From Gammaproteobacteria bacterium (GTDB lineage: Bacteria; Pseudomonadota; Gammaproteobacteria; JAJFKG01), in NCBI GenBank assembly GCA_021156325.1, contig JAJNDI010000002.1:4757-68756 (forward strand): 64,000 bases of DNA, in the 5' to 3' direction. The translations under genes and the position numbers were made by a program. The notes beneath the pieces are model-generated. The model was not told the DNA's origin and ran no database searches. It saw nothing but the letters and a program-made list of their open reading frames with translations. This document shows, piece after piece, positions 947-3,963 of this stretch. Every line of letters starts with the position of its first letter. Position 1 is the stretch's first letter.

Positions 947-975
947 TTGCTTCTTTCAGAAAAATTCTCTACAAT
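947..975 (+). promoter_or_regulatory. Candidate sigma70-type promoter feeding hammerhead A
   Basis: TTGCTT (947-952), 17-nt spacer, TACAAT (970-975). The predicted start near 982 is about 10-20 nt upstream of the ribozyme. Confidence 0.3.
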
Positions 976-993
976 CTTTATTGATTGCTATTA

Positions 994-1060
994 GGCAACT
1001 CATCACAACTGATGAGCGGGTGAAATTCCTGCGAAACCCTGCTAGGGTCTTGTGAAAGCC
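994..1060 (+). ncRNA. Hammerhead self-cleaving ribozyme, copy A (type I topology, open stem I)
   Basis: Stem I is UCACAA 1003-1008 / UUGUGA 1050-1055. CUGAUGA is at 1009-1015. Stem II is GCGGG 1016-1020 / CCUGC 1028-1032. GAA is at 1033-1035. Stem III is ACCCU 1036-1040 / AGGGU 1044-1048. C17 is at 1049, so cleavage is predicted at 1049|1050. An optional stem I extension pairs GGC 994-996 with GCC 1058-1060. Confidence 0.85.
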
Positions 1061-1171
1061 GTCCTCATTTCTTAACCTTACGGCGGGTCGTTTAGACTGA
1101 AATATGGCAAATCTGAATACCAGCAGTTGCTGGTTGAGGGATTTGTCCTTCTGTATAACGTAAAATGATAT

Positions 1172-1490
1172 AGCGAATAATAAATAGTTTTTGATTGATT
1201 AGCATTGAGCTAATAGTGAAGATTGAGGAGCCGTAAGCTATATTTTTGTCTTTAATTCAAAGCGAAATAATCAATAGTGCATAACTTTTAGAGTATGGGC
1301 ATTTAGCCTGTAGCAATAAAGTGATTGGCCGGTTAGTACATTTAATGGATATATCATAAACCGATAAAGCTAATAGCAAAATATGGTTAACGCTAAGTGA
1401 TTAACGTTTAGCATTTTGGTCTTTTTGATAAATATTTAAAAATAACTCTATAACGATAAGTGAAATAATAAATAGTTAACAGCGAATAGG
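1172..1490 (+). repeat. Iteron-like direct repeats in the 625-nt ORF-free leader
   Basis: AGCGAATAATAAATAGTT (1172-1189), AGCGAAATAATCAATAGTG (1261-1279), AGTGAAATAATAAATAGTT (1459-1477), and a partial AGCGAATAGG (1481-1490). A related ATTAATAAATAG is at 3106-3117. No ORF of 60 aa or more lies in 1056-1680 on either strand. Confidence 0.45.
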
Positions 1491-1689
1491 AGGTGACGAG
1501 AGAGTAAAAATTGTTTAGTGTTAATTGTTAATTTCAGTGAGTAATTGTGCCATTTTAGGGCAGGTACTTTAGGTACCATTATCATTTAAGATTATCATTG
1601 TGGACATGACCACTCTGATAGCCCTTCACACCACTGAACACCTTTCATGAACGCACAATTCTGCTCACGGTTTTACTGAGTTGGTTAAT

Positions 1690-2589
1690 ATGCAGAAGAT
1701 AAGCAACACCAAGCTGAGAAAGGCAAAATATTCGATTAACGAGTTAATCAAAAAGATGCCACCACATTCTTATAAAAGTATCGCTGATACTCGAATTATT
1801 TTGCATAGCGTTGCCAGAGAGCTGCAAGAACTGGGATATAAACTTGATAACATACGGCAGCTAAAGCCTAAACATATCGAGGCTTTGGTAGAGAAATGGA
1901 AAGCAGCAGGGCAGAATCCAGGCACCATTAAAAACAAGATGGCCAAATTGCGCCTTACAGCAACCTGTATTCCGAAGCCTAACATCATCAAGCCTACCAA
2001 TGAAGAATACGGTATCAGTAACCGAAACTATATCCCTACCCATAACAAAGCTATCGATGAGATTGATTTATCGCAAATAAACGATCCGCATCTTAAGTTG
2101 TCAATTGAAGCACAAAAGCTATTTGGGCTTAGACGTGAGGAATCACTTAAAATTATCTTAAGTCAGGCTGATCAAGGCAATTTTTTAGAAATGCAGCCAT
2201 CCTGGACAAAAGGAGCAGTGCCGCGTCAGATCCCGATTGAAACTCCAGAGCAACGGGCATTTATAGACAGGGCAAAATCTTTTGTAGGAGAGGGCAGATC
2301 CTTTATCCCTGCAGATAAAAGCAACCGTGAACAACTCAACCGCTATATAGGTGAAACCAAAAGAATAGGATTTCGTAATTTGCATGGTTTGCGTCATGCC
2401 TACGCTCAGCGGCGTTATCGAGAATTAAGACAGTATACTGGCAAAATCCTGGAATGCCCCCTACGGGGAGGCAAGTCACGTAAGGAAATGGCCAAAGAGG
2501 AGAGACTGATTGATGATAAAATCAGAGAGAGGATCTCGGCGAACTTGGGGCATTCCAGGATATCGATTGTCAAAATTTATATAGGCTGA
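1690..2589 (+). CDS. Tyrosine recombinase (phage-integrase fold), atypical small family
   Basis: The catalytic signature is readable: GLRREESL (Arg I), HGLRHAYAQRRY (H-x-x-R), LGHSRISIVKIYIG (His/Tyr nucleophile near the C-terminus). The ATG is at 1690 and an alternative TTG is at 1681. The Shine-Dalgarno sequence is weak. Confidence 0.75.
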   Translation: MQKISNTKLRKAKYSINELIKKMPPHSYKSIADTRIILHSVARELQELGYKLDNIRQLKPKHIEALVEKWKAAGQNPGTIKNKMAKLRLTATCIPKPNIIKPTNEEYGISNRNYIPTHNKAIDEIDLSQINDPHLKLSIEAQKLFGLRREESLKIILSQADQGNFLEMQPSWTKGAVPRQIPIETPEQRAFIDRAKSFVGEGRSFIPADKSNREQLNRYIGETKRIGFRNLHGLRHAYAQRRYRELRQYTGKILECPLRGGKSRKEMAKEERLIDDKIRERISANLGHSRISIVKIYIG

Positions 2590-2638
2590 GTTTTTTATTA
2601 TGGCTTATTAATTTCCTATTGATAATAGCGACCAACCA

Positions 2639-2665
2639 TGACAATTTGATTTGATCAAATTGTCA
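2639..2665. repeat. Perfect 27-bp palindrome (12-3-12) between the convergent recombinase and OB-fold genes
   Basis: TGACAATTTGAT TTG ATCAAATTGTCA. There is no flanking T-run on either strand, so it is not a canonical intrinsic terminator. Confidence 0.6.
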
Positions 2666-2740
2666 CAGTCAGTACGCTTTTAGAAATTACTTGGAATGTG
2701 ATGTATCCTTACCAGCCAGATGAACGGCCTATACTTTCCG

Positions 2741-3088
2741 CTATTTTGTACCAGCAAGCAAGTCCAAGATAGATAATGCTTCAATATCTATCGCAATATA
2801 TTCATCTTCATAACTGCATTCGCCAGTTTCATTGTCGATTTCCTTTGTAGAAACAATACGAGCTTTTACCCATACAGAATCTCCATCTTTAAGGCTCAAT
2901 TTCTGAACTAGCTTGGCTTGTCTACCAAAAGCAGCAATCTGAATATACCACCCGCCGGTATACTTGCCGTTAAGCCTAGGATTTCTAACCGTGAGGTAAG
3001 CACTGCTTTTCTCTTCTTTCTCACTGATGGATAGTTTTGGCTTATCTACAACAAACCCAATAATCTCTATTTCATTTACGTTTGACAT
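2741..3088 (-). CDS. SSB-like OB-fold protein (115 aa) lacking the acidic SSB C-terminal tail
   Basis: The pattern NEIEIIGFVVDKP...YLTV...W..IAAFGRQAKLV..LKDGDSVWVKARI resembles the SSB/PriB OB fold. A strong SD (GAGGAG) lies 8 nt upstream of the ATG. Confidence 0.55.
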   Translation of the reverse strand: MSNVNEIEIIGFVVDKPKLSISEKEEKSSAYLTVRNPRLNGKYTGGWYIQIAAFGRQAKLVQKLSLKDGDSVWVKARIVSTKEIDNETGECSYEDEYIAIDIEALSILDLLAGTK

Positions 3089-3441
3089 GTGTTTATCTCC
3101 TCTACATTAATAAATAGAACCGGCACAGAAAGTGACGATTCGATGAAAAACACAGAGAAGAATCCGCATAGGATTCCGCCCTATGCGGACATGACGACTA
3201 ATTTAAAGTGTTAAAATTCGTATTGCACACGTTTATGCAACATATAAATAACAACACGGTAATTAGCAATGTCATGCATAAATGATAAGAATTGATTAAG
3301 TTAAACGCTTAATCAATTTAACCGGACAAGCCAAGAATTTAGCTTGTTTAGCCTGGATATAAAAATATATATCTTCAGCCTCAAATCCTTTATTTTCTTT
3401 TATGAAGAAAACCTTAAGCCTAGTACAAGGATGGGTTTAGC

Positions 3442-3511
3442 ATATCACAAGACGTATCACTTATTAGTAAAACGTTTCGCTGGGCTTTCACCTGCTCATC
3501 AGTTGTGTTAT
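3442..3511 (-). ncRNA. Hammerhead self-cleaving ribozyme, copy B (type I topology)
   Basis: Coordinates are plus-strand; the RNA is read on the minus strand. CACAA is at 3507-3503 and CUGAUGA at 3502-3496. Stem II is GCAGG 3495-3491 / CCAGC 3483-3479, with one A.A mismatch. GAA is at 3478-3476. Stem III is ACGU 3475-3472 / ACGU 3455-3452, plus inner UUAC/GUGA. C17 is at 3451. UUGUG is at 3450-3446. Confidence 0.8.
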
Positions 3512-3963
3512 CTCGTTTTAACAAGGCTATTTAGCATTTTTAAGATAGTTATTAATTAAAACGATAATAGATTTTTACAGAAAAATCAAGCCTCTTGATG
3601 AGGGGAGATCAGTTTTTGATCGAACGTTTTATGCTGGTTTTTATGGTGTTTTGTAAGCATTCTCCCGCAGACATTGCTTACAAATTTTTATAGCGAGACA
3701 AGTTGCTATTCCCAAAAACGAGACGTATACTGAAGACGCTGTGTTGTTGTAAAACCAGAAAATTCACTCACAAAGGAGGTATCAGGCAGCCAATAACACG
3801 CATTGTTCTGCTTCTTTTAGCAGTGCAATAAAAAAGGGGACTTGGCAACAGTAAGGCGTTCAAAGCGATCATCTGCTACCAAGTCTGTCAATCGCGCTAC
3901 GAAGGAGTGTACCACCACCCCCTCGCAGCTAACCACCATTAACCAAAACAGAGGAGGTTAATA

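What the first reader, a model, noticed from the sequence alone, without database searches (positions are those of the whole stretch)
947..3560. Inward-facing hammerhead pair brackets a 2.5-kb tyrosine-recombinase / OB-fold cassette: candidate undescribed ribozyme-processed recombination module
The two ribozymes lie on opposite strands and both point inward. Each therefore caps the 5' end of one of two convergent transcription units.

- **Unit A:** HHR-A, then a 625-nt ORF-free, AT-rich, repeat-bearing leader, then the tyrosine recombinase (1690-2589).
- **Unit B:** HHR-B, then a 357-nt leader, then an SSB/PriB-sized OB-fold protein (3088-2741).
- **Between them:** a perfect 27-bp palindrome sits between the two stop codons.

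Similarity between the two arms is confined to ribozyme core and stem nucleotides, so selection appears to act on RNA function and not on DNA terminal inverted repeats. A sigma70-like promoter (TTGCTT-17-TACAAT, 947-975) would start transcription only about 10-20 nt before HHR-A. Self-cleavage would then strip the 5'-triphosphate end and leave long 5'-OH RNAs. Bacterial hammerheads are known to occur in prophage and integrase neighbourhoods, mostly without an assigned function. I cannot match a symmetric pair capping both units of a recombinase plus ssDNA-binding cassette to any described system.

Three hypotheses, all inference:
1. 5'-OH processing tunes the stability or translation of both mRNAs.
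2. The long processed leader is a non-coding RNA cofactor for the recombinase. The only support is an analogy to the UTR-encoded RNAs of IS110 and IS200/605 elements.
3. The cassette is a small mobile or invertible unit nested in the tRNA-Phe island.
Basis: partly seen in the sequence, partly recalled or inferred. Interest (0 to 1): 0.9.

Follow-up and report, generated by a model that had tools for sequence, protein, structure and literature searches.

The report
Hammerhead ribozymes heading two mobile-element operons
Two real self-cleaving hammerhead ribozymes sit at the heads of a recombinase gene and a DNA-binding-protein gene, but this is a rearranged, stripped-down copy of a module already widespread in Legionella-type mobile elements, not a new kind of system.

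Summary
Both hammerheads are real. They are type I, every core position is intact, and they are the only two hits in 64 kb to a model built from 48 relatives (70 and 61 bits). The genes are a tyrosine recombinase (PF12834 + PF12835, Xer/Int/Cre-like fold) and a divergent SSB-like protein.

The pairing is not peculiar to this window. In 69 of 80 Legionellaceae loci that encode this recombinase family, a same-strand hammerhead lies 1.1-1.9 kb upstream. That is 69 of the 73 loci with enough upstream sequence.

The usual layout has two parts on one strand:
- **Unit 1:** promoter, hammerhead, RAGATH-32, RAGATH-13 (both Rfam families), a recombinase paralogue (ORF1), then the recombinase.
- **Unit 2:** a second promoter and hammerhead, a small ORF, SSB, ArdA and DUF932.

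The window is a derived version. Unit 2 is inverted, ORF1 and both RAGATH elements are missing, the leader has no detectable relatives, and the usual promoter spacing is lost. The closest long relative (L081) also has a convergent pair.

Most likely function (inferred): the ribozymes trim the 5' end and insulate each operon, leaving 5'-OH mRNAs. I found no support for a mobile or invertible cassette, or for a leader-RNA cofactor in this window. Hammerheads near integrases, and upstream of Legionella ardA, were reported in 2011.

The parts
947..975 (+). Possible sigma-70-like promoter, TTGCTT-17-TACAAT (weak)
   Evidence: It is read directly from the sequence and matches 8 of 12 consensus positions. 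The promoter scan did not list it, and promoter-like sites here are no more frequent than in shuffles. Its -10 ends 33 nt before CUGAUGA, against 13-15 nt in 57 of 64 distinct unit-1 hammerheads of relatives.
999..1059 (+). HHR-A, a type I hammerhead ribozyme. Core CUGAUGA is at 1009-1015, and predicted cleavage lies between C1049 and U1050.
   Evidence: The family covariance model R1 gives 70.2 bits, E 1e-15. Rfam HH9 gives 25.5 bits, E 0.0025, below its gathering score. Motif script. Stems and base pairs were checked. Stem II and its loop closely match the unit-1 hammerhead of L081.
999..1016 (+). Competing 7-bp hairpin, CUCAUCA (999-1005) with UGAUGAG (1010-1016), which sequesters the HHR-A core and part of stem I
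   Evidence: The minimum-free-energy fold uses this hairpin at -17.6 kcal/mol. The hammerhead fold scores -16.0. None of 113 other family hammerheads has such an upstream complement.
1050..1689 (+). Leader A: a 640-nt, AT-rich, ORF-free 5' UTR left after cleavage
   Evidence: - No + strand ORF of 40 aa or more.
- GC is 31% over 1201-1600.
- No trace of ORF1 by tblastn.
- No nucleotide similarity to the loci fetched by then.
- No RAGATH-13 or RAGATH-32.
- Folding z-score is -1.55.
1690..2589 (+). Tyrosine recombinase of the Phage_int_SAM_2 / Integrase_1 family (the 'ORF2' of the family module)
   Evidence: - Pfam PF12834 at 51 bits and PF12835 at 28.6 bits, both above their cut-offs.
- 6149 homologues, mostly from Legionella.
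- It keeps every family-invariant residue, including R148/R149, K174, H232, R235, H288 and Y297.
- The AlphaFold2 model has a mean pLDDT of 90.8.
- Foldseek top matches are XerA, VchIntI4, lambda Int, XerH, Tn1549 Int and Cre, each at probability 1.0.
2639..2665 (.). Inverted repeat between the two convergent stop codons: perfect 12-bp arms around a 3-nt spacer
   Evidence: - Found. The longest arm in 370 shuffled controls was 10 bp.
- As RNA it folds at -14.1 kcal/mol on the + strand (z = -3.7). On the - strand it reaches -23.0 kcal/mol as a 20-bp stem with G.U pairs (z = -7.3).
- No U-tract follows it, and the terminator scan did not list it.
- It is not conserved after the recombinase gene in relatives, where the median best repeat is 6 bp, the same as the null.
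2741..3088 (-). SSB-like OB-fold protein of 115 aa, with no C-terminal acidic tip
   Evidence: - Pfam SSB at 34.4 bits against a cut-off of 26.
- It is an orphan. The word-indexed search found only itself. The full HMMER scan of 1.84 billion representatives found only two weak relatives.
- It is not detectably related to the 140-aa SSBs of unit 2 in relatives.
3089..3450 (-). Leader B: a 362-nt 5' UTR left after HHR-B cleavage. It contains a terminator-like 12-bp hairpin (3190-3162) with a U-rich tail about 70 nt before the SSB start codon.
   Evidence: The terminator scan is. The fold of 3150-3265 (-) gives -34.4 kcal/mol, z = -4.3. No Rfam family matches it.
3441..3512 (-). HHR-B, a type I hammerhead ribozyme. 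Core CUGAUGA is at 3502-3496, and predicted cleavage lies after the C at 3451.
   Evidence: Model R1 gives 61.1 bits, E 4e-13. Motif script. The minimum-free-energy fold is the hammerhead fold. Stem II has an A.A mismatch and stem III a U.U mismatch. Rfam Hammerhead_3 gives only 16.1 bits.

Best explanation
The region is a rearranged, reduced copy of a backbone module found in the conjugative elements and plasmids of Legionellaceae.

**The usual module.** It has two operons.
- Unit 1 is a pair of tyrosine-recombinase paralogues (ORF1, then the recombinase).
- Unit 2 is ssb, ardA and DUF932.
- Each operon starts with a promoter that fires almost directly into a type I hammerhead.

**How it most likely works.** The ribozyme cuts itself off as it is transcribed.
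- This removes the 5'-triphosphate end. It also removes any RNA read through from upstream genes.
- Each mRNA therefore begins at a fixed nucleotide with a 5'-OH, here U1050 on the + strand and position 3450 on the - strand.
- This would insulate the leader and the translation start from upstream context. It would also uncouple the stability of the two operons from their neighbours.

**This window.**
- The second unit has been inverted, so the two units converge on a 12-bp-arm hairpin.
- ORF1 and the structured leader elements RAGATH-32 and RAGATH-13 have been lost.
- The SSB gene is a divergent orphan.

**Shown:** the ribozyme motifs, stem covariation, the tight positional link to promoters and genes, and the protein families.

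**Inferred:** cleavage in vivo, the effect on mRNA, and the 'establishment or leading-region' role of the genes.
For: 1. **The ribozymes are real.** Both have a complete core and three stems. Across 47 distinct relatives:
   - 89% of cells pair, against 71% in shuffles and 30-36% when partners are slid.
   - 13 of 17 pairs change on both sides.
2. **The link to the recombinase is tight.** All 114 hammerheads in the 80 loci lie on the recombinase strand. 69 loci have one 1072-1897 nt upstream, and only 4 loci with 4 kb of upstream sequence lack it.
3. **The ribozyme sits at the 5' end of the transcript.** The best -10 element ends 13-15 nt before CUGAUGA in 57 of 64 distinct unit-1 hammerheads and 27 of 42 distinct unit-2 hammerheads. 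That places the start of transcription at about the first nucleotide of stem I.
4. **Unit 2 content recurs.** A hammerhead is followed by a small ORF, SSB, ArdA and DUF932. This matches the report of a hammerhead directly upstream of ardA in Legionella (PMC3088659).
5. **The leaders of relatives are structured.** RAGATH-32 begins about 20 nt after the hammerhead. RAGATH-13 lies just upstream of ORF1, in 70 loci. This fits a need for a defined 5' end.
6. **Convergence recurs.** L081, the closest relative with a long contig, has a (+) hammerhead before ORF1 and the recombinase. It also has a (-) hammerhead before ardA.
7. **The recombinase looks intact.** It keeps all family-invariant residues and has a confident tyrosine-recombinase fold.
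Against: - **No expression or cleavage data exist for this window.**
- **Promoter geometry is not canonical.** The candidate -10 for HHR-A ends 33 nt before the core and is no better than about 15% of random positions. HHR-B has no convincing promoter.
- **The ribozymes may be slowed.**
  - HHR-A has a competing 7-bp anti-core hairpin that is predicted slightly more stable than the active fold.
  - HHR-B has mismatches in stems II and III.
- **ORF1 and both RAGATH elements are missing**. If the ribozyme exists mainly to give those elements a defined 5' end, that reason is gone here.
- **The consequence of a 5'-OH end in Legionellaceae is not established.** Stabilisation versus decay is argued only from general knowledge of RNase E and RNase J.
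Confidence: 0.6

Rival explanations
1. Decaying relic. The window holds a degenerate remnant of the module, in which the ribozymes and perhaps the genes no longer serve any function.
For: - ORF1 and both RAGATH elements are lost.
- The leader has no relatives and no unusual folding.
- The usual promoter spacing is lost.
- An anti-core hairpin is unique to HHR-A, and HHR-B has stem mismatches.
- The SSB-like ORF is short, lacks the acidic C-terminal tip, and is an orphan.
- The conserved upstream hairpin and its motif are absent from the window.
Against: - Every invariant core nucleotide is intact in both ribozymes, and both score 61-70 bits.
- The recombinase ORF is full length and keeps all 54 family-invariant residues.
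- The SSB-like ORF is intact and passes Pfam's cut-off.
- A single recombinase behind a long ORF-free leader also occurs on small plasmids of Francisella, Acinetobacter and Shewanella, so it may be a viable minimal form.
Confidence: 0.2
2. RNA cofactor. The processed 5'-OH leader is a non-coding RNA that works with the recombinase as a guide, scaffold or regulator.
For: - In relatives, the leader released by the hammerhead carries two conserved structured RNAs of unknown function, placed consistently between the ribozyme and ORF1.
- Another RAGATH motif, RAGATH-18, proved to be the guide RNA of IS607 TnpB (PMC11061315).
Against: - In this window both RAGATH elements are absent with filters off, with best partial hits of 11 and 8 bits.
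- The leader has no homologues and no unusual folding.
- RAGATH-13 sits directly upstream of the ORF1 start codon. This fits a cis-regulatory 5' UTR element at least as well as a trans-acting RNA.
- ORF1, the likely partner, is also absent here.
Confidence: 0.07
3. Mobile or invertible cassette. The 2.5-kb segment moves or flips as a unit, using the two ribozyme sequences as inverted DNA repeats or using the central palindrome.
For: - The two ribozymes form a 34-nt inverted repeat at 88% identity.
- A 21-nt direct repeat at 81% identity flanks the cassette, at 945-965 and 3566-3586.
- The 12-3-12 palindrome could be read as a recombinase core site with 10-bp arms and a 7-bp spacer (my reading of the sequence).
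- Unit 2 has the opposite orientation from that in nearly all relatives.
Against: - Arm similarity ends at the ribozyme boundaries and is explained by RNA constraints shared with 114 other copies.
- In relatives the two ribozymes are direct repeats, not inverted. Their spacing varies widely, with cargo genes in between.
- The palindrome is not conserved after the recombinase gene.
- The short flanking direct repeat is of a kind that arises by chance in AT-rich DNA.
- No empty site or flipped copy is available for comparison.
Confidence: 0.04
4. Circular or spliced RNA. Paired hammerheads excise an RNA that is then ligated, as in retrozymes or viroid-like agents.
For: In many relatives two same-strand hammerheads lie about 2.6 kb apart around ORF1 and the recombinase. 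Perreault et al. raised this possibility for multi-hammerhead arrangements in general.
Against: - In this window the two ribozymes are on opposite strands, so no single transcript carries both.
- In relatives each hammerhead has its own promoter, and their spacing varies from 50 nt to 3.9 kb.
- Perreault et al. did not detect circular or spliced products.
Confidence: 0.02

Closest known systems
Bacterial type I hammerhead ribozymes next to integrase, prophage or ardA genes (Perreault et al. 2011, PMC3088659)
   Same: - The same ribozyme class and core.
- The same genomic company: integrase genes, and several hammerheads flanking single genes or short gene blocks.
- A hammerhead directly upstream of ardA in Legionella, which corresponds to unit 2 of the family described here.
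   Different: - That work did not, in the passages I could read, tie the ribozyme to the PF12834/PF12835 recombinase pair or to a promoter-proximal position.
- Here the second unit is inverted and carries only a divergent SSB-like gene, with no ardA.
[quoted passage not shown]
   Same: In relatives these two families lie between the unit-1 hammerhead and ORF1. The module as a whole is therefore already partly catalogued.
   Different: - Both are absent from this window.
- I could not find their functions. The original paper (PMC4509812) is not held in the library.
Leading-region or establishment operons of conjugative plasmids (ssb, ardA, psiB; e.g. PMC11541004)
   Same: - The gene content of unit 2 in relatives (ssb, ardA, DUF932).
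- All genes face the same way.
- The module lies next to a coupling-protein gene in 13 loci and near an element end at a tRNA gene.
   Different: - Known leading regions use single-stranded-DNA promoters (Frpo/ssi), according to my own knowledge. Here ordinary-looking promoters are followed by ribozymes.
- Whether this region enters the recipient first has not been shown.
- In the window the SSB unit is inverted, which breaks the co-directional layout.
Ribozyme insulators (RiboJ, synthetic) and glmS-type 5'-OH generation
   Same: A self-cleaving ribozyme placed just after a promoter removes a variable 5' context and leaves a 5'-OH mRNA. This is a comparison of working principle only, from my own knowledge.
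   Different: RiboJ is engineered, and glmS responds to a metabolite. No ligand control is evident here, and the effect on expression has not been tested.
Xer / lambda Int / Cre / integron-integrase tyrosine recombinases
   Same: A two-domain fold, with the best structural matches at probability 1.0 and TM-scores of 0.5-0.6. The conserved R, K, H, R, H and Y residues are present.
   Different: - Sequence identity is 12-16%, and there is no PDB hit by sequence.
- The family usually comes as a pair with a paralogue that lacks the first catalytic arginine.
- Its substrate and role are unknown.

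Membership tests
Hammerhead ribozyme (type I) | Conserved core: C3 U4 G5 A6 N7 G8 A9, G12 A13 A14, the A15.1-U16.1 pair, and H17 at the cleavage site | tested here: met
   Both sites carry CUGAUGA...GAAA...GUC with every position intact.
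Hammerhead ribozyme (type I) | Three stems around the core, with stems II and III closed by loops and stem I open. The stems should be supported by covariation. | tested here: met
   - Both sites have this topology.
- Across 47 distinct relatives, 13 of 17 pairs change on both sides, and 89% of cells pair against 30-36% when partners are slid.
- Caveat: the sequences were chosen by a script that required pairing.
- HHR-B has one mismatch in stem II and one in stem III.
Hammerhead ribozyme (type I) | Reaches the gathering score of an Rfam hammerhead model | tested here: not met
   HHR-A scores 25.5 bits against HH9's 52. HHR-B scores 16.1 against Hammerhead_3's 48.5. None of the 16 related loci scanned at gathering threshold gave an Rfam hammerhead hit either, so the Rfam models under-cover this lineage.
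Hammerhead ribozyme (type I) | Site-specific self-cleavage that leaves 2',3'-cyclic phosphate and 5'-OH ends | not testable with these tools
   This needs in vitro transcription or 5'-end mapping. The anti-core hairpin in HHR-A may slow cleavage.
Tyrosine recombinase (Phage_int_SAM_2 / Integrase_1) | Pfam domains above their curated cut-offs | tested here: met
   PF12834 scores 51.2 against 22, and PF12835 scores 28.6 against 23.
Tyrosine recombinase (Phage_int_SAM_2 / Integrase_1) | Two-domain tyrosine-recombinase fold | tested here: met
   The model has a mean pLDDT of 90.8. The 37 Foldseek matches with E of 0.001 or better are all tyrosine recombinases.
Tyrosine recombinase (Phage_int_SAM_2 / Integrase_1) | Catalytic R-K-H-R-H/W-Y residues | tested here: inconclusive
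   Family-invariant R148/R149, K174, H232, R235, H288 and Y297 are present in the window protein. I assigned them to catalytic roles by motif resemblance (GLRREE, HGLRH, GHS...IY), not by structural superposition.
SSB (OB-fold single-strand DNA-binding protein) | Pfam SSB domain above its cut-off | tested here: met
   34.4 bits against 26, covering residues 4-103.
SSB (OB-fold single-strand DNA-binding protein) | Acidic C-terminal tip (such as ...DDIPF) that recruits partner proteins | tested here: not met
   The protein ends ...ILDLLAGTK. The unit-2 SSBs of relatives end ...EVPF or ...EIPF.
Canonical Legionellaceae module: hammerhead, RAGATH elements, ORF1, recombinase | Same-strand hammerhead upstream of the recombinase | tested here: met
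   HHR-A lies 631 nt upstream. In relatives the distance is 1072-1897 nt.
Canonical Legionellaceae module: hammerhead, RAGATH elements, ORF1, recombinase | RAGATH-32 and RAGATH-13 in the leader | tested here: not met
   Rfam finds nothing at its gathering score or at E up to 10. Family-specific models with filters off give only partial hits of 11 and 8 bits.
Canonical Legionellaceae module: hammerhead, RAGATH elements, ORF1, recombinase | The paralogue ORF1 directly upstream of the recombinase | tested here: not met
   In a tblastn search, ORF1 matches only the recombinase gene itself in the window.
Canonical Legionellaceae module: hammerhead, RAGATH elements, ORF1, recombinase | Promoter whose -10 ends 13-15 nt before CUGAUGA | tested here: not met
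   For HHR-A the distance is 33 nt. HHR-B has no convincing promoter.
Canonical Legionellaceae module: hammerhead, RAGATH elements, ORF1, recombinase | A second hammerhead-headed ssb(-ardA) unit on the same strand | tested here: not met
   A hammerhead-headed SSB-like unit exists, but on the opposite strand and without ardA. L081 shows the same inversion for its ardA unit.
Mobile or invertible DNA cassette | Terminal inverted repeats beyond the functional RNA, target-site duplication, and empty or flipped sites elsewhere | tested here: inconclusive
   - Inverted similarity is limited to the 34-nt ribozyme cores.
- The only flanking direct repeat is 21 nt at 81% identity.
- No close relative exists that could show an empty or flipped site. 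The nearest recombinase is 60% identical.
Intrinsic (Rho-independent) terminator, for the 2639-2665 hairpin | A GC-rich stem followed by a U-tract | tested here: not met
   The stem is stable but AT-rich, no U-tract follows on either strand, and the scan did not list it.

The most novel reading that the evidence does not exclude
In the wider family, hammerhead cleavage releases a 5'-OH leader that carries RAGATH-32 and RAGATH-13.
- This RNA would be a working partner of the ORF1/ORF2 tyrosine-recombinase pair, as guide, scaffold or switch. The pair would act during the establishment of conjugative elements.
- Its DNA target might be the covarying hairpin just upstream of the unit-1 promoter.
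- The window, and small plasmids that carry a lone recombinase behind a long ORF-free leader, would then be natural RNA-less or differently equipped variants.
- The evidence neither supports nor excludes this for the relatives.
- For this window the evidence argues against the known RNA elements being present.
Probability: 0.08. Interest if true: 0.8.

Novelty: new member of a known kind. Interest (0 to 1): 0.38.

Why it matters
The window itself adds little. It is one more, somewhat damaged, example of hammerheads beside integrase genes in a mobile element.

The comparison it prompted is more useful.
- One recombinase family in Legionellaceae is almost always preceded by a hammerhead placed right at the start of transcription.
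- That hammerhead is followed by two catalogued structured RNAs of unknown function.
- A second hammerhead heads the ssb-ardA operon.

This gives a clear, testable setting for an old question: what are bacterial hammerheads for? They could be tested as 5'-end insulators for the establishment genes of conjugative elements. The same setting offers a way to find a function for RAGATH-13 and RAGATH-32.

The Rfam hammerhead models miss this lineage at their gathering scores, so such ribozymes are probably under-annotated in Legionella genomes.

Tried and rejected
- **First scan of genome contigs.** A scan with the single recombinase sequence found nothing. Repeating it with an alignment found 580 loci, of which 80 were kept.
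- **Leader A as a decayed ORF1.** Rejected, because tblastn finds no trace of ORF1 there.
- **Nucleotide similarity.**
  - Both leaders, the region between the genes and the flanks matched nothing meaningful in the fetched loci.
  - In plasmids, only part of the recombinase gene matched.
- **Unit-2 proteins of relatives in the window.** A tblastn search with the small ORFs, SSB, ArdA and DUF932 gave no hits.
- **Tracing the cassette through the OB-fold protein.** It is an orphan, and the only PDB match by sequence is a borderline SSB hit (E 0.72).
- **The palindrome as a conserved recombinase site or terminator.**
  - It is not conserved in the family.
  - It lacks a U-tract.
- **RAGATH elements in the window.** Absent.
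- **Unusual structure in leader A.** The folding z-score is -1.55.
- **Literature.**
  - No paper links bacterial hammerheads to tyrosine recombinases specifically.
  - No paper mentions RAGATH-13 or RAGATH-32 by name.
  - The RAGATH source paper is not held.
- **Recombinase against PDB by sequence profile.** No hit. The fold search was needed instead.
- **Hammerheads beside recombinase homologues on small plasmids.**
  - Shewanella and Acinetobacter: none.
  - Francisella pF243: one weak hit at 34 bits, with an A.A pair next to the core.

Full report
**1. What is in the window**

The region lies in an island next to tRNA-Phe (6918-6993, - strand). The island carries a P4-type integrase (5769-6911) and two CsrA paralogues.

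*HHR-A (+ strand).* At 999-1059 the sequence reads stem I (UCACAA), CUGAUGA, stem II (GCGGG/CCUGC), GAAA, stem III (ACCCU/AGGGU), then C, followed by the 3' strand of stem I (UUGUGA). This is a complete type I hammerhead. Predicted cleavage lies between C1049 and U1050.

*HHR-B (- strand).* At 3512-3441 there is a second type I hammerhead, with predicted cleavage after the C at 3451. It has one A.A mismatch in stem II. Its stem III is longer and contains one U.U mismatch.

*Statistical support.*
- A motif script found only these two sites in 64 kb, and none in 30 shuffles.
- Rfam's own models give sub-threshold scores: HH9 at 25.5 bits (E 0.0025) for HHR-A, and Hammerhead_3 at 16.1 bits for HHR-B.
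- A covariance model built from 48 family members gives 70.2 and 61.1 bits, with no other hit in the window.

*Between the ribozymes.*
- A 640-nt ORF-free leader.
- A 299-aa tyrosine recombinase.
  - It matches PF12834 and PF12835.
  - Its AlphaFold2 model has a mean pLDDT of 90.8.
  - Its best structural matches are XerA, the integron integrase VchIntI4, lambda Int, XerH and Cre.
- An inverted repeat with perfect 12-bp arms and a 3-nt spacer, at 2639-2665.
- A 115-aa SSB-like ORF on the - strand (Pfam SSB at 34.4 bits).
- A 362-nt leader B.

- The palindrome is 12-3-12, not a perfect 27-mer.
- The proposed promoter is weak. It matches 8 of 12 consensus positions, was not listed by the scan, and sits in a region where promoter-like sites are no more frequent than in shuffles.

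**2. What relatives show**

The recombinase has 6149 homologues, mostly from Legionella. I fetched 80 genome loci, each oriented with the recombinase on the + strand.

*The ribozyme travels with the recombinase.*
- The family model finds 114 hammerheads in these loci, all on the recombinase strand.
- In 69 loci a hammerhead lies 1072-1897 nt upstream of the recombinase.
- Of the 11 loci without one, 7 have less than 1.5 kb of upstream sequence. That makes 69 of 73 informative loci.
- The stems covary strongly: 13 of 17 pairs change on both sides, and 89% of cells pair against 30-36% when partners are slid.
- Caveat: the seed sequences were chosen by a script that required pairing.

*The usual layout*:
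- **Unit 1:** a promoter, the hammerhead, RAGATH-32 (RF02922, starting about 20 nt after the ribozyme), RAGATH-13 (RF02688, ending about 30 nt before ORF1), ORF1, and then the recombinase.
  - ORF1 is a 268-289-aa paralogue that matches PF12834 only.
  - It lacks the first catalytic arginine: GLSFSE or GLTLLE in place of GLRREE.
  - A subset of loci has a 78-aa ORF in the leader, and their hammerhead lies about 1.6 kb upstream.
- **Unit 2:** a second promoter and hammerhead, a small ORF, SSB (140 aa), ArdA and DUF932, on the same strand.
  - It starts 50 nt to 3.9 kb downstream of the recombinase.
  - Unrelated cargo sometimes lies in between.

*The ribozyme sits at the 5' end of the transcript.*
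- The best -10 element ends 13-15 nt before CUGAUGA in 57 of 64 distinct unit-1 hammerheads and 27 of 42 distinct unit-2 hammerheads.
- Transcription should therefore start at about the first nucleotide of stem I.

*The RAGATH elements are widespread in the family.*
- A model built from the RAGATH-13 hits finds the element in 70 loci.
- A model built from RAGATH-32 gives strong hits after unit-1 hammerheads.
- It also gives weak hits at the same offset after some unit-2 hammerheads.

*Setting.* The module occurs on a Legionella plasmid. In 13 loci it follows a type IV coupling-protein gene. In L003 and L004 it lies next to a tRNA gene at what looks like an element end.

**3. How the window differs**

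- It has no ORF1.
- It has no RAGATH-13 or RAGATH-32, even with search filters off.
- Its leaders have no nucleotide similarity to the loci fetched by then.
- Leader A folds no better than shuffles (z = -1.55).
- Its SSB-like protein is an orphan: 2 weak relatives among 1.84 billion representatives. It lacks the acidic C-terminal tip.
- There is no ardA, and unit 2 is inverted.
- The usual promoter spacing is missing.
- HHR-A has a 7-bp hairpin complementary to its own core.
  - The hairpin is predicted slightly more stable than the active fold: -17.6 against -16.0 kcal/mol.
  - None of 113 other family hammerheads has such a feature.

The two closest recombinases are 57-60% identical, and both still have ORF1. 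One of them, L081, has a (+) hammerhead heading ORF1 and the recombinase. It also has a (-) hammerhead heading ardA. The convergent layout is therefore a recurring rearrangement in this sub-lineage, and not a defining symmetry.

The central palindrome is longer than any repeat found in 370 shuffled controls. It is not conserved after the recombinase gene in the family, and it lacks a U-tract. It folds strongly in the 3' ends of both convergent RNAs. A 3'-end hairpin for both transcripts is the simplest reading, but that is inference.

**4. Mechanism**

- **Shown:** two intact ribozyme motifs, family-wide covariation, a fixed position just after promoters and ahead of two specific operons, and the protein families.
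- **Established knowledge:** hammerhead cleavage leaves almost the whole type I ribozyme on the short 5' fragment, which ends in a 2',3'-cyclic phosphate. The downstream RNA starts with a 5'-OH.
- **Inferred:**
  - The ribozymes strip the triphosphate end and any read-through RNA.
  - The leader therefore always starts at the same nucleotide. In relatives that leader is the RAGATH-containing one.
  - The two operons are thereby uncoupled from upstream transcription.
  - The principle resembles engineered ribozyme insulators.
  - The gene set (ssb, ardA, DUF932, next to a coupling-protein gene) resembles plasmid leading-region or establishment genes. That link is also inference.

I put this explanation at about 0.6. 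The main rival, at about 0.2, is that the window copy is a decaying relic. An RNA cofactor role for the leader is possible in relatives, but the window lacks the RNAs concerned. The mobile-cassette and circular-RNA readings have little support.

**5. Comparison with what is known**

- Perreault et al. 2011 (PMC3088659) reported several of these features:
  - hundreds of bacterial hammerheads, many near integrase genes;
  - several hammerheads flanking single genes or short gene blocks;
  - a hammerhead directly upstream of ardA in three Legionella strains.
- Rfam already holds RAGATH-13 and RAGATH-32. [quoted passage not shown]
- I found no paper that ties bacterial hammerheads to this recombinase family, or that gives a function for those two RNAs. 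The RAGATH source paper is not held in the library.

The window is therefore a new, atypical member of a known kind. The family-level regularities described here may not have been spelled out before: ribozyme placement next to the promoter, the two-operon design, and the near-obligate link to the ORF1/ORF2 pair.

**6. Verdict**

- **Observation:** confirmed.
- **Interpretation:** partly supported. The 5'-processing hypothesis stands. The readings as an undescribed, symmetric or mobile module do not.
- **Interest:** modest for the window itself. It is higher for the family-level question of what promoter-proximal hammerheads and the RAGATH leaders do for these recombinases.

Noticed in passing
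L003 about 2700-2735, and the equivalent position in most unit-1 loci (for example L049, L034, L018): A covarying hairpin lies about 30 nt upstream of the unit-1 -35 element.
- It has an 11-15 bp stem flanked by TTTT and AAAA.
- A conserved GTAAAATCAACACATT motif precedes it.
- No U-run follows the stem on either strand, so it is not a terminator.
- It could be an operator, an oriT-type site or a folded single-strand DNA site.
- It is absent from the window.
   Followed up: partly
L003 2866-2946 and 3074-3168; 70 loci in all: The Rfam families RAGATH-32 and RAGATH-13 lie between the unit-1 hammerhead and ORF1.
- RAGATH-13 is present in 70 loci, including two with no detected hammerhead (L038, L041).
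- Weak RAGATH-32-like hits (16-26 bits) start about 20 nt after several unit-2 hammerheads.
   Followed up: partly
window 999-1016: A 7-bp hairpin pairs CUCAUCA with the UGAUGAG of the HHR-A core. It is predicted slightly more stable than the active fold and is unique among 114 family hammerheads. It could be a kinetic trap or a switch, or it could be drift.
   Followed up: partly
window 3162-3190 (- strand): A terminator-like 12-bp hairpin with a U-rich tail lies inside leader B, about 70 nt before the SSB-like start codon. It could be an attenuator.
   Followed up: no
L085 (Francisella philomiragia plasmid pF243) 1134-1191: A hammerhead-like element (34 bits, E 7e-7) lies about 350 nt upstream of a lone recombinase homologue.
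- It has an A.A pair at the position next to the core.
- Homologues on small Shewanella and Acinetobacter plasmids also sit behind ORF-free stretches of 630-1290 nt, but with no hammerhead hit.
   Followed up: partly
L086 (Acinetobacter pittii pIEC338SC2) 913-3911; L003 109-1593 and 12 other loci: The recombinase family repeatedly lies next to a type IV coupling-protein gene. This is seen on a 5.6-kb Acinetobacter plasmid and upstream of the module in 13 Legionellaceae loci. It hints at a role in DNA transfer or processing and not in integration.
   Followed up: no
window 11-892 (+): An ORF that runs off the left end of the window looks like the C-terminal part of a eukaryotic-type protein kinase, followed by an OTU-like cysteine-protease motif (NGNCFY). 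That would be typical of a Legionella effector. It has no Pfam hit at E up to 0.01.
   Followed up: no
window 3964-5062: Two CsrA paralogues (4257-4439 and 4802-5062) and small unannotated ORFs lie between the cassette and the island integrase. From memory, this resembles the lvr/csrA regulatory regions of Legionella conjugative elements.
   Followed up: no
window 945-965 and 3566-3586: A 21-nt direct repeat at 81% identity flanks the cassette just outside the two ribozymes. It is probably a chance match in AT-rich DNA.
   Followed up: no
L081 10116-12894: In the closest long relative, a type I-F-like CRISPR adaptation and interference block (Cas1, Cas2-3) lies about 0.5 kb beyond the inverted hammerhead-ardA unit.
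   Followed up: no
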